This document shows positions 4,117 through 4,975 of a stretch of 64,000 bases of DNA, piece by piece. Each line of letters opens with the position of its first letter. Within the stretch, counting starts at the first letter, position 1. Source of the DNA: Escherichia phage moha; sequence record MN850590.1, one strand, 5' to 3'. The position numbers were made by a program, and so were the translations under genes. A model generated the notes under the pieces. That model was not told where the DNA came from and did not search any database. It was given only the letters and a program-made list of their open reading frames with translations.

Positions 4117-4191
4117 GGCCCTGTAGCTCAATGGGAGAGCTGTCAGCTCATAACTGATAGGTAGCTGGATCGAAACCAGCCAGGGTCACCA
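4117..4191 (+). tRNA. tRNA, anticodon CAU (Met or Ile2 type), encoded CCA
   Basis: cloverleaf folded by hand: acceptor GGCCCTG/CAGGGTC, D arm GCTC/GAGC, anticodon loop CTCATAA, T arm GCTGG/CCAGC. Confidence 0.75.
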
Positions 4192-4194
4192 ATC

Positions 4195-4271
4195 CGAGGC
4201 ATAGCTCAATTGTATAGAGCAACGGACTTCTAATCCGTAGGTTGAAGGTTAGAATCCTTCTGTCTCGACCA
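4195..4271 (+). tRNA. tRNA-Arg, anticodon UCU, encoded CCA
   Basis: acceptor CGAGGCA/TGTCTCG, anticodon stem ACGGA/TCCGT, loop CTTCTAA, T arm GAAGG/CCTTC. Confidence 0.75.
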
Positions 4272-4289
4272 ACTTTAAGTGAGGAAAAT

Positions 4290-4634
4290 ATGAAAGGCAA
4301 TATTTATCTGGTAGTTCATGACTTAACGTTTTATTTTAACGAACGTGAAACAGTTATTTCCGACCGGTTGATTAATTCGTTATATCAACACGCTGATTAC
4401 GTTTATTTCCAAAATGAATTTGGCCATTGGAAGTTTCTTAAAAACCGTTCAGGGTTAACTAGTTTTGAATACTTTGACCGTAAAGACCTTTTAAACGAAA
4501 TTCCATTACAACATCGGTTCCAGAAACGCGAATCACTATACTATTGTCGTCATATACCAAATGCTGAATGTGTTAATGAAGCGATTAATCTATGGCGGCG
4601 GCGTCGAGAGCAAATTGATGATATGCCAAAATAA
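4290..4634 (+). CDS. hypothetical protein
   Basis: 114 aa; SD gaggaaaa before ATG 4290; the listed 4242 start would overlap the tRNA. Confidence 0.7.
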   Translation: MKGNIYLVVHDLTFYFNERETVISDRLINSLYQHADYVYFQNEFGHWKFLKNRSGLTSFEYFDRKDLLNEIPLQHRFQKRESLYYCRHIPNAECVNEAINLWRRRREQIDDMPK

Positions 4635-4639
4635 GAAGC

Positions 4640-4943
4640 CGGGTCGCTACCGGCAAGTCGTCGGACTGATGTTCCCTGAGTAAGGACTGGTCTTAATAAA
4701 TCTTTACGATTTGTTAATATCCCCTTACATCACAGCAGAAACGGCGCACCGAATTATCGATTCGAGGAAATATCTTTGCCGTAAGCCGAGTAGCGTTTTT
4801 GACGGAACGTTCGGATATGGTCGAGATATGGCCTTTTAAAAATATTGAGTAGCGTCAACTGCTTAATAACCGGGTTCGAATCCCGGCGTTTCGTACAAAC
4901 ACTTGCCTTAGCAGGTGGAACCCCGACAAGGTTGCCGCAAGGC
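4640..4943 (+). ncRNA. candidate small stable RNA(s) or degenerate tRNA remnant
   Basis: ~300 bp without credible ORF between tRNAs and terminator; tRNA-like T arm CCGGGTTCGAATCCCGG at 4870-4886 with acceptor-like CGGAACG/CGTTTCG pairing, but no canonical cloverleaf. Confidence 0.3.
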
Positions 4944-4945
4944 TT

Positions 4946-4975
4946 AGCCCCTTCCGAAAGGTCGGGGCTTTTTGG
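4946..4975 (+). terminator. rho-independent terminator
   Basis: hairpin GCCCC-ttccgaaaggtc-GGGGC followed by TTTTT. Confidence 0.7.

What the first reader, a model, noticed from the sequence alone, without database searches (positions are those of the whole stretch)
4117..4975. Reduced tRNA cluster (CAU and UCU only) followed by a 300-bp structured non-coding region
Only two tRNAs are present where T4 has eight. Downstream lies a ~300-bp ORF-free segment with a perfect tRNA-like T arm (CCGGG-TTCGAAT-CCCGG) and acceptor-like pairing but no canonical cloverleaf, ending in a strong terminator. It may encode stable small RNAs like T4 species 1/2 RNAs or be a decayed tRNA.
Basis: partly seen in the sequence, partly recalled or inferred. 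Interest (0 to 1): 0.5.

Follow-up and report, generated by a model that had tools for sequence, protein, structure and literature searches.

The report
Phage T4-type stable RNAs rnaD, rnaC
The two tRNAs and the 345-base "structured non-coding" stretch are the tRNA operon of an RB69-like T-even phage, and the stretch encodes its versions of the T4 stable RNAs species 2 (rnaD) and species 1 (rnaC), known for about 50 years but still without a known function.

Summary
The window comes from a Mosigvirus (RB69-like) phage. ARAGORN and Rfam find only two tRNAs: CAU at 4117-4191 and Arg-UCU at 4195-4271.

After a 114-aa ORF, bases 4631-4975 align to T4 rnaD, rnaC, a trailer and a terminator at 92.6% identity. 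Flanking genes are only 74-84% identical. rnaC alone is 98.6% identical.

Comparison across at least nine T-even genera shows that both RNAs are under structural selection. rnaC (4758-4897) is a tRNA-shaped molecule. It has a 7-bp acceptor stem with two invariant U·U mismatches and a canonical T arm. A roughly 70-nt arm replaces the D arm, and a 10-bp arm replaces the anticodon arm. The loops of these two arms (UUGACG and CGUCAA) are exactly complementary and change together in Marfavirus. rnaD (4631-4750) is a small hairpin followed by a long irregular hairpin.

Neither RNA matches an Rfam family, and the accessible literature still calls their function unknown. The tRNA-CAU is the counterpart of T4 tRNA-Ile, which reads AUA.

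Verdict: already known, correctly recognised, modest interest. My mechanistic guess, a non-decoding tRNA mimic that binds a tRNA-handling factor, is inference only.

The parts
4028..4054 (+). Middle-promoter-like site (MotA-box-like TTTGCTT at 4028-4034 and -10 TATTAT at 4049-4054) upstream of the tRNA operon
   Evidence: It aligns with the T4 site that record X03016 annotates as the putative -35/-10 of promoter PM2. Function here is inferred from homology only.
4117..4191 (+). tRNA with anticodon CAU and encoded CCA, most likely the AUA-reading tRNA-Ile (lysidine type) rather than tRNA-Met
   Evidence: ARAGORN and Rfam at 59.4 bits. Its acceptor strand GGCCCUG and D arm match T4 tRNA-Ile, whose gene also reads CAT.
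4195..4271 (+). tRNA-Arg (UCU, reads AGA), with encoded CCA
   Evidence: ARAGORN and Rfam at 71.1 bits. It aligns poorly with T4 tRNA-Arg(UCU).
4290..4634 (+). ORF of 114 aa (RB69ORF150c family), function unknown; its stop codon overlaps the first bases of rnaD
   Evidence: ORF list; phrog_3355, E = 5e-50, unknown function; no Pfam hit above threshold; annotated in RB69, ATK47 and SA79RD. T4 has no such ORF at this junction, where tRNA-Arg abuts rnaD.
4631..4750 (+). rnaD (ortholog of T4 species 2 RNA). It has a 5' hairpin P1 (4638-4642 with 4650-4654) and then a long irregular hairpin closed by P2 (4657-4663 with 4742-4749), with a lineage-variable tip
   Evidence: 86.8% identity to T4 rnaD. 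Covariance model R2 scores 149.8 bits. Folding z = -3.5.
4751..4757 (+). A/U-rich spacer (GAATTAT) between rnaD and rnaC
   Evidence: Alignment with T4. A processing role is inferred, not tested.
4758..4897 (+). rnaC (ortholog of T4 species 1 RNA), a tRNA-shaped RNA. Acceptor stem 4758-4764 with 4887-4893; long arm 4765-4834; 10-bp arm 4843-4868; T arm 4870-4886; U73 at 4894; conserved ACA at 4895-4897
   Evidence: 98.6% identity to T4 rnaC. Model R1 gives one hit in the window at 154 bits. RNAalifold finds 39 pairs, 22 of them with compensatory changes. In the pair count, 97.9% of cells are paired, 0 of 500 shuffles reach the observed values, and slid controls give about 40%.
4799..4804 (+). 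Apical loop UUGACG of the rnaC long arm, one partner of the proposed kissing loop
   Evidence: It is the exact reverse complement of 4853-4858. It is invariant in 15 of 16 aligned sequences, and Marfavirus has UUGGCG paired with CGCCAA.
4853..4858 (+). Loop CGUCAA of the rnaC 10-bp arm, the other partner of the proposed kissing loop
   Evidence: As above.
4898..4946 (+). 3' trailer with small hairpins, conserved with T4
   Evidence: 92.5% identity to T4 across the 80-nt stretch 4896-4975, which includes the terminator; in Dhakavirus the same trailer directly follows rnaD. Folding z is only -2.2. I recall, unverified, that an RNase III site was mapped here in T4.
4947..4973 (+). Intrinsic terminator of the tRNA/stable-RNA operon (GCCCC...GGGGC followed by TTTTT)
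   Evidence: Terminator scan. It is homologous to the 'pot. terminator' in T4 record X03016.

Best explanation
The region is the tRNA operon of an RB69-like (Mosigvirus) T-even phage. A transcript of roughly 0.9 kb runs from a T4-PM2-like middle promoter (about 4028-4054) to the terminator at 4947-4973. It carries tRNA-Ile(CAU, reading AUA), tRNA-Arg(UCU, reading AGA), a 114-aa ORF, rnaD and rnaC. The two RNAs are the orthologs of T4 species 2 and species 1 stable RNAs. rnaC is a tRNA-derived mimic. Its acceptor stem and T arm form a normal tRNA 'minihelix', so host tRNA-processing enzymes can cut it out like a tRNA. Its D and anticodon arms are replaced by a roughly 70-nt arm and a 10-bp arm whose loops pair with each other, so it has no free anticodon and cannot decode. 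rnaD is not tRNA-like; it is a conserved small hairpin plus a long hairpin. What is shown: the homology, the synteny, the secondary structures by covariation, and the presence of both RNAs in tRNA clusters of many T-even genera. What is inferred: processing by RNase P, RNase E, RNase III and exonucleases, taken from what I recall of T4 work, and the function. My committed guess for function is that rnaC acts in trans as a non-chargeable tRNA mimic that occupies or titrates a protein recognising the acceptor/T-arm end of tRNAs, either a host tRNA-targeting defence or toxin or a tRNA-processing enzyme, giving a host-dependent advantage. I put that functional part at about 0.2-0.25. The confidence of 0.85 given for this explanation refers to identity and architecture.
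For: Identity and synteny:
- The best matches are Mosigvirus genomes at 99.6-99.8%.
- Bases 4629-4978 align to T4 rnaD-rnaC-trailer at 92.6%, against 74-84% for neighbouring genes. rnaC is 98.6% and rnaD 86.8% identical.
- T4 records annotate species 2 and species 1 RNA at the aligned positions, and ATK47 annotates rnaC.

rnaC structure and distribution:
- In 16 sequences from at least 9 genera, 97.9% of cells are paired and 24 pairs show both-side changes. None of 500 shuffles reaches this, and slid controls give 37-49%.
- Length is constant at 140-142 nt even where the long arm's sequence is replaced.
- The loops UUGACG and CGUCAA are complementary, with a joint A>G / U>C change in all six Marfavirus sequences.
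- In Karam-, Gelderland- and Kagamiyamavirus rnaC sits in or next to the tRNA-Trp/tRNA-Gly stretch, and in Kanagawavirus Q7622 directly after a tRNA-CAU, i.e. in a tRNA slot of the array.

rnaD structure:
- 93.6% of cells are paired, 14 pairs show both-side changes, and 0 of 500 shuffles reach this.
- Divergent homologs directly follow a tRNA in other genera.

Expression and phenotype, from the literature on T4-like phages:
- Northern blots validated RNAC in T4 (PMC9697503).
- A convergent SNP in rnaD accompanied a virulence gain on host ECOR34 (PMC12685909).
Against: No expression, end-mapping or binding data exist for this phage. The mature ends are uncertain, because T4 records differ by 1-3 nt (137 nt against 139 nt). 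The kissing loop rests on a single compensatory event in one lineage. The rnaD counts come from an alignment fitted to the model, which favours the structure. The decoy function has no direct support. rnaC is precisely absent in Dhakavirus AnYang, and rnaD occurs without rnaC in Providencia phage PSTCR6, so neither RNA is essential and they need not act together. The literature states that the functions are unknown. The shared SNP in PMC12685909 could reflect standing variation or an effect on neighbouring gene expression.
Confidence: 0.85

Rival explanations
1. The two RNAs are cis-acting by-products. In this view they are structured spacers that guide processing, or protect the 3' end of the tRNA-operon transcript from exonucleases, and have no function once released.
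For: In this window and in T4 they lie at the 3' end of the operon, just before the terminator. They are dispensable in some relatives. From memory, T4 deletions of the tRNA region are viable on laboratory hosts.
Against: In Karam-, Gelderland- and Kagamiyamavirus rnaC lies in the middle of tRNA arrays, not at a 3' end. A protective spacer would not need invariant loops, a constant 140-142-nt length and a conserved UACAA tail. The RNAs accumulate as discrete stable species in T4 (PMC9697503).
Confidence: 0.2
2. The RNAs are decayed tRNA pseudogenes, i.e. neutral remnants of the larger T4-type tRNA set.
For: rnaC has a perfect T arm and an acceptor stem but no anticodon or D arm. The cluster is reduced from eight tRNAs to two. 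Some annotators' tRNA finders call part of rnaC a tRNA.
Against: rnaC is 98.6% identical to T4 while flanking genes are 74-84%. 24 pairs carry compensatory changes. It is present in at least 9 genera at constant length. T4 itself, with all eight tRNAs, has both RNAs.
Confidence: 0.03
3. The stretch encodes small proteins, as several GenBank records imply by annotating 'hypothetical protein' across it.
For: Mechanical ORFs of 42 aa (+), 49 aa (+) and 74 aa (-) overlap 4711-4994. Some records place hypothetical proteins under the match.
Against: The 74-aa ORF shrinks to 34 aa without an ATG in T4, RB69 and others, and the + strand ORF changes its start or is absent. Substitutions follow base-pairing rather than codon periodicity.
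Confidence: 0.02
4. The RNAs are trans-acting base-pairing regulators (sRNAs) that target host or phage mRNAs.
For: Papers loosely call them 'small regulatory RNAs' (PMC9697503). In T4 they are classed as late RNAs, both by that study and by an earlier report it cites.
Against: The best-conserved loops of rnaC pair with each other, which leaves no obvious free seed. The internal loop of rnaD between P2 and P3 is variable in divergent homologs. I identified no target and did not run a target search. The review PMC3014915 states that no trans-acting sRNA has been characterised in T4.
Confidence: 0.1

Closest known systems
Bacteriophage T4 rnaC (species 1 / band C stable RNA; NC_000866 70908-71046; X03016 4741-4877)
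   Same: 98.6% identical sequence, the same position after rnaD and before the same trailer and terminator, and the same acceptor stem, T arm and loops.
   Different: Only two substitutions, one in the long arm and one in the 10-bp arm (T4 ...ACUAC... against ...ACUGC... here). Expression has not been tested for this phage.
Bacteriophage T4 rnaD (species 2 / band D stable RNA; NC_000866 71053-71171)
   Same: 86.8% identical, with the same conserved 5' and 3' domains and the same order relative to rnaC.
   Different: In T4, rnaD starts one base after tRNA-Arg's CCA and ends in an encoded ...CACCA. Here a 114-aa ORF separates tRNA-Arg from rnaD, and the end reads ...CACCG. The tip of the central hairpin differs.
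Canonical tRNA (Rfam RF00005)
   Same: rnaC has a 7-bp acceptor stem stacked next to a 5-bp T stem with a UUCGAAU loop, sits in tRNA arrays, and forms a four-way junction.
   Different: It has no D arm and no 5-bp/7-nt anticodon arm. It is about 140 nt long, has tandem U.U mismatches in the acceptor stem, and carries UACA instead of NCCA. Neither ARAGORN nor the Rfam tRNA model calls it.
tRNA-like domains of tmRNA and of bacterial Y-RNA-like YrlA
   Same: The general idea is the same: a non-decoding RNA that keeps an acceptor/T-arm module.
   Different: ARAGORN finds no tmRNA and I saw no tag reading frame. Rfam gives no tmRNA hit, and its YrlA hit (16.6 bits, E = 2.5) lies elsewhere, at 4158-4222. 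This is an analogy only.
T4 tRNA-Ile (gene anticodon CAT) and E. coli tRNA-Ile2 (ileX)
   Same: The window's tRNA-CAU shares the acceptor strand GGCCCUG and the D arm with T4 tRNA-Ile, and shares C4-G69, C5-G68 and G27.U43 with ileX.
   Different: The anticodon stem and T arm differ from T4 tRNA-Ile. Lysidine modification and Ile charging cannot be tested here.

Membership tests
T4 rnaC (species 1 RNA) orthologs | Sequence homology to T4 rnaC over its full length | tested here: met
   139/139 nt aligned at 98.6%; full alignment; model R1 scores 154 bits over 1-141/141.
T4 rnaC (species 1 RNA) orthologs | Location in the phage tRNA cluster, downstream of rnaD and upstream of the operon terminator | tested here: met
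   The order tRNA-Arg ... rnaD - rnaC - trailer - terminator is as in T4.
T4 rnaC (species 1 RNA) orthologs | Accumulates as a stable RNA of about 140 nt in infected cells | not testable with these tools
   Shown for T4 by Northern blot (PMC9697503). There are no data for this phage.
T4 rnaD (species 2 RNA) orthologs | Sequence and structure homology to T4 rnaD | tested here: met
   86.8% over 121 aligned columns; model R2 scores 149.8 bits; shared helices P1-P4.
T4 rnaD (species 2 RNA) orthologs | Immediately follows a tRNA gene (tRNA-Arg in T4) | tested here: not met
   Here the 345-nt ORF 4290-4634 lies between tRNA-Arg and rnaD. The same arrangement is found in RB69, ATK47 and SA79RD. I treat this as a lineage variant, not as grounds for exclusion.
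Canonical tRNA (RF00005), tested on rnaC | Cloverleaf with a D arm, a 5-bp anticodon stem with a 7-nt loop, and a score above the Rfam gathering threshold or a call by ARAGORN | tested here: not met
   No ARAGORN call. The only hit is a tRNA-Sec match of 16.6 bits (threshold 47, E = 3.6) at 4802-4894.
tmRNA | A tRNA-like domain plus a tag reading frame, detected by ARAGORN or Rfam | tested here: not met
   ARAGORN reports no tmRNA and Rfam gives no hit.
AUA-reading tRNA-Ile (lysidine type), tested on the tRNA-CAU | CAU anticodon with tRNA-Ile2-type acceptor and anticodon-stem determinants (C4-G69, C5-G68, G27.U43) rather than tRNA-Met or initiator features | tested here: inconclusive
   The features are present, and the acceptor and D arm equal those of T4 tRNA-Ile. 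However, the determinant list and the E. coli reference sequences come from my memory, and the modification and charging are not testable here.

The most novel reading that the evidence does not exclude
rnaC may be a purpose-built, non-chargeable tRNA mimic. It has an acceptor/T minihelix with invariant tandem U.U mismatches and a conserved UACA tail, and its body is locked by a loop-loop helix. T-even phages would use it, possibly with rnaD, to occupy or inhibit a host factor that acts on tRNA ends, for example a tRNA-targeting anti-phage toxin or a processing or repair enzyme. That would give a 50-year-old orphan RNA an anti-defence or host-takeover role. The reported convergent rnaD mutation that raised virulence on one E. 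coli strain (PMC12685909) would be a first phenotype of this kind.
Probability: 0.2. Interest if true: 0.7.

Novelty: already known. Interest (0 to 1): 0.27.

Why it matters
For genome annotation, many T-even GenBank records leave this stretch blank, put 'hypothetical proteins' on it, or call part of rnaC a tRNA. Rfam 15 has no family for either RNA. The alignments and covariance models made here would allow consistent annotation.

For biology, rnaC and rnaD are among the oldest known phage RNAs without a function. This analysis shows three things:
- Both RNAs are conserved in tRNA clusters across at least nine genera.
- rnaC is the most conserved segment of its neighbourhood.
- rnaC has a covariation-supported tRNA-like fold with a probable kissing loop.

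Together these give concrete, mutable targets for experiments. The finding itself, in this window, is an expected feature of an RB69-like genome.

Tried and rejected
- **Rfam.** I ran all 4227 families at gathering thresholds over the whole window and at E <= 10 over 4000-5100. Only the two tRNAs passed. The weak hits (tRNA-Sec, isrK, YrlA, plastid UTR models) are sub-threshold or are the tRNAs read on the other strand.
- **tmRNA.** ARAGORN finds none.
- **Hammerhead-like reading of rnaD.** The motifs CUGAUG ... GAAA suggested it by eye. I rejected it because the essential A9 is U or G, the motif varies (CUGAAG), the flanking arms pair with each other, and Rfam gives no hit.
- **rnaD as a tRNA-like molecule.** It has no T arm. 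The encoded CCA end seen in T4 is not conserved here (CACCG) or in divergent homologs, and the outer two P2 pairs are not kept.
- **rnaD-rnaC intermolecular pairing.** The rnaD P1 loop CGCUAC is complementary to GUAGCG in rnaC. This is a 6-mer expected by chance, the P1 loop is not conserved in divergent homologs, and the two RNAs occur without each other.
- **Protein-coding reading.** The ORFs are not conserved.
- **IMG/VR pattern CATCACAGCNGAAACGGCGC.** It returned three chance matches in G+C-rich coding DNA (L028-L030), which I discarded.
- **Pattern scans for rnaC elsewhere.** In the bacterial/archaeal genome collection and in the non-T-even metagenome matches, model R1 confirmed none of the pattern hits above 19 bits. 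I therefore have no evidence for cellular homologs. The exact-pattern search is narrow.
- **T4 late promoter.** TATAAATA does not occur next to the operon; the nearest copy is at 1198.
- **Older primary papers.** Work from the 1970s-80s on species 1 and 2 RNA could not be retrieved. Statements about RNase P, RNase III and RNase E processing, and about a 140-nt mature length, rest on my memory.
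Full report
**What is in the sequence**

ARAGORN finds exactly two tRNA genes in the 64-kb window: anticodon CAT at 4117-4191 and TCT at 4195-4271. Rfam confirms both, at 59.4 and 71.1 bits, and finds nothing else in the window at curated thresholds. An ORF of 114 aa runs from 4290 to 4634. From 4631 to 4975 there is no conserved reading frame. As single RNAs, 4631-4750 and 4757-4895 fold better than shuffled sequence, with z = -3.5 and -4.6.

**Where the window comes from and what the stretch is**

The 1.1 kb around the finding matches Mosigvirus (RB69-like T-even) phages at up to 99.8% identity, and 808 phage records hold a match. In T4, record NC_000866 lists tRNA-Arg, then rnaD ('species 2 RNA'), then rnaC ('species 1 RNA'). 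The original T4 record X03016 lists the same features followed by a potential terminator.

Bases 4630-4985 align base for base with T4 rnaD, rnaC and the trailer. rnaC is 98.6% identical, rnaD 86.8%, and the trailer with the terminator 92.5%. The neighbouring genes of the window and T4 are only 74-84% identical, so this block, and rnaC in particular, is the best-conserved part of the neighbourhood. GenBank record KT184309 (ATK47, the same genus) already annotates rnaC at the equivalent position. They are the orthologs.

**Structure of rnaC (4758-4897)**

I collected homologs from annotated phage genomes and from viral and metagenome contigs. I then aligned 16 distinct sequences from Tequatro-, Mosig-, Gapriver-, Kanagawa-, Karam-, Marfa-, Gelderland- and Kagamiyamavirus and one unclassified phage.

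RNAalifold gives a four-way junction with 39 pairs, 22 of them with compensatory changes. In the explicit pair count, 97.9% of cells are paired and 24 pairs have changes on both sides. None of 500 shuffles reaches the observed values, and structures slid by 1-3 columns give 37-49% pairing. The parts are as follows.

- **Acceptor stem.** It is 7 bp, CGAUUCG with CGUUUCG. Pair 3-70 switches between A-U and G-C. Positions 4-69 and 5-68 are invariant U·U.
- **Long arm.** It has about 70 nt and sits where a tRNA has its D arm. Its sequence is almost entirely replaced in some genera, but its helices and total length are kept.
- **10-bp arm.** It sits where the anticodon arm would be.
- **T arm.** It is canonical, and its third pair covaries (G-C or U-A).

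The length from C1 to the conserved ACA is 140-142 nt in every genus.

The apical loop of the long arm (UUGACG, 4799-4804) is the exact reverse complement of the loop of the 10-bp arm (CGUCAA, 4853-4858). Both loops are invariant except in Marfavirus, where all six sequences read UUGGCG and CGCCAA. That is a change at exactly the two positions that would pair. I read this as a 6-bp kissing loop that closes the body of the molecule. It rests on one evolutionary event, so it is probable rather than proven.

The tail after the acceptor stem is U-ACAA in all genera except Marfavirus, where it is U-CCAA, i.e. an encoded CCA. The covariance model R1 built from this alignment finds a single copy in the window, at 154 bits.

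**Structure of rnaD (4631-4750)**

Twenty-one distinct sequences give a 5' hairpin P1, whose closing pair covaries, followed by a long irregular hairpin made of P2, P3 and P4. The tip of that hairpin exists in three unrelated sequence versions.

Model R2 scores 149.8 bits on the window. It also detects weak but consistent homologs (17-37 bits) in Marfa-, Karam- and Kanagawavirus. These keep the motifs AAGUCGUC, GUUCCCUG, UCACAGC and GGCGCA and, in several cases, start right after a tRNA gene. On the model-guided alignment, 93.6% of cells are paired, 14 pairs change on both sides, and 0 of 500 shuffles reach this. That alignment is fitted to the structure, which flatters the numbers.

rnaD has no T arm. 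Its CCA-like end in T4 is not conserved, so I do not regard it as tRNA-like.

**Genomic context in relatives**

- In Karam-, Gelderland- and Kagamiyamavirus, rnaC lies in or next to the tRNA-Trp/tRNA-Gly stretch. In Kanagawavirus Q7622 it directly follows a tRNA-CAU. In each case it occupies a slot of a tRNA array.
- Dhakavirus AnYang has rnaD joined directly to the trailer, so rnaC is precisely absent.
- Providencia phage PSTCR6 has tRNA-Arg, rnaD and then tRNA-Ile(GAU), with no rnaC called there.
- The two RNAs are therefore independent cassettes that behave like tRNA genes.
- In this window, and in RB69, ATK47 and SA79RD, a 114-aa ORF of unknown function (phrog_3355) lies between tRNA-Arg and rnaD. 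Its stop codon overlaps the start of rnaD.
- The T4 site annotated as putative middle promoter PM2 is conserved upstream of the first tRNA, at 4028-4054.

**The two tRNAs**

The CAU tRNA shares its acceptor strand (GGCCCUG) and its D arm with T4 tRNA-Ile. The T4 gene also reads CAT, and ARAGORN likewise calls it Met. The CAU tRNA also has C4-G69, C5-G68 and G27·U43, as in E. coli ileX. The ileX sequence and this determinant list are from my memory. It is therefore most likely the AUA-reading isoleucine tRNA.

AUA and AGA occur at 9.3 and 5.9 per 1000 codons in the window's 74 long ORFs. As far as I recall, that is roughly twice the E. coli frequency, which fits the usual idea that these tRNAs supplement rare host tRNAs.

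The Arg-UCU tRNA aligns poorly with T4's Arg-UCU tRNA.

**What is known about function**

A 2010 review says the biological roles of RNAC and RNAD are unknown (PMC3014915). A 2022 omics study calls them RNAs of yet unknown function, classes them as late RNAs and confirms RNAC by Northern blot (PMC9697503). A 2025 evolution study found one shared SNP, located in rnaD, in three lines of a T4-like phage that gained virulence on E. coli ECOR34 (relative growth measure 0.17 to 0.98). That study still calls the function unknown (PMC12685909). Further searches found nothing newer. Neither RNA has an Rfam family.

**How it most likely works**

Four things are shown: orthology to the T4 stable RNAs, RNA-level selection on both, the tRNA-like acceptor/T module of rnaC, and the placement of both RNAs in tRNA arrays.

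Two things are inferred.

1. Release of the RNAs from the operon transcript by the host's tRNA-processing enzymes. I recall older T4 work showing RNase P at the 5' end of species 1, RNase III in the trailer and RNase E in the spacer, but I could not retrieve those papers.
2. The idea that rnaC cannot decode or be charged. It has no free anticodon. The combination C1-G72 with U73 and tandem U·U matches no E. coli identity set that I know of.

My best guess for function is a non-decoding tRNA mimic that binds a protein recognising tRNA ends, with a host-dependent benefit. I give this about 0.2-0.25. The main rival is that the RNAs are processing or stability by-products with no trans function (about 0.2). 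That view sits badly with rnaC's mid-array position in other genera and with its invariant loops and tail. Pseudogene and protein-coding readings are effectively excluded.

**Verdict**

The feature is a long-known part of T-even genomes, and RB69 itself has the same layout. Its novelty class is 'already known'. The added value of this analysis is the cross-genus structural picture of rnaC and rnaD and the observation that neither is represented in Rfam.

Noticed in passing
window 4290-4634: A 114-aa ORF (phrog_3355, unknown function) sits exactly at the junction where T4 has tRNA-Arg abutting rnaD, and its stop codon overlaps the first bases of rnaD. In this lineage an mRNA is therefore embedded between tRNA and stable-RNA genes of one transcript.
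   Followed up: partly
window 4195-4271 versus L003:1674-1748: The tRNA-Arg(UCU) here aligns poorly with T4's tRNA-Arg(UCU), with different acceptor, D and T arms, although the adjacent rnaD and rnaC are 87-99% identical. The tRNA seems to have been replaced, or has diverged far more than the stable RNAs.
   Followed up: partly
L033:1201-1342, L043, L055, L059, L060, L062 (Klebsiella Marfavirus and related contigs): Marfavirus rnaC has an encoded CCA (GUCCAA) where all other genera have GUACAA. It also carries the only variant of the two complementary loops (UUGGCG with CGCCAA).
   Followed up: yes
L005:1199-1394 (Dhakavirus AnYang); L007:1201-1403 (Providencia phage PSTCR6): AnYang has rnaD joined directly to the trailer and terminator, so rnaC is precisely missing. 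PSTCR6 has tRNA-Arg, rnaD and then tRNA-Ile(GAU), with no rnaC called there. The two RNAs behave as independent cassettes.
   Followed up: yes
L062:12770-12912, L027:790-890, L032:101-201, L006:864-992, L018:4561-4660: Divergent rnaD-like elements (17-37 bits with model R2) lie in tRNA clusters of Marfa-, Karam- and Kanagawavirus, several of them starting right after a tRNA gene. One carries a roughly 47-nt insertion in the P1 loop. None of these is annotated in the records I looked at.
   Followed up: partly
public records matching window 4631-4975 (e.g. MK373784, MZ234025, OK210076, MK327928): Many GenBank records annotate 'hypothetical protein' over rnaD and rnaC, or call the 3' part of rnaC a tRNA (tRNA-Phe of 96 nt in KKP_3262; tRNA-Lys in G2133). 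These are probably mis-annotations.
   Followed up: partly
window 4654-4638, minus strand: The terminator scan flags the rnaD P1 hairpin read on the opposite strand (GCCGGTAGCGACCCGGC followed by a T-rich run) as terminator-like. It is probably a by-product of the hairpin, but it could stop antisense transcription.
   Followed up: no
window 4906-4913 and 4942-4949: The trailer contains a short direct repeat (CCUUAGC and GCUUAGC) flanking small hairpins, two of them with GNRA-type tetraloops (GCAA, GAAA). I recall, unverified, that an RNase III site lies in this region in T4.
   Followed up: no
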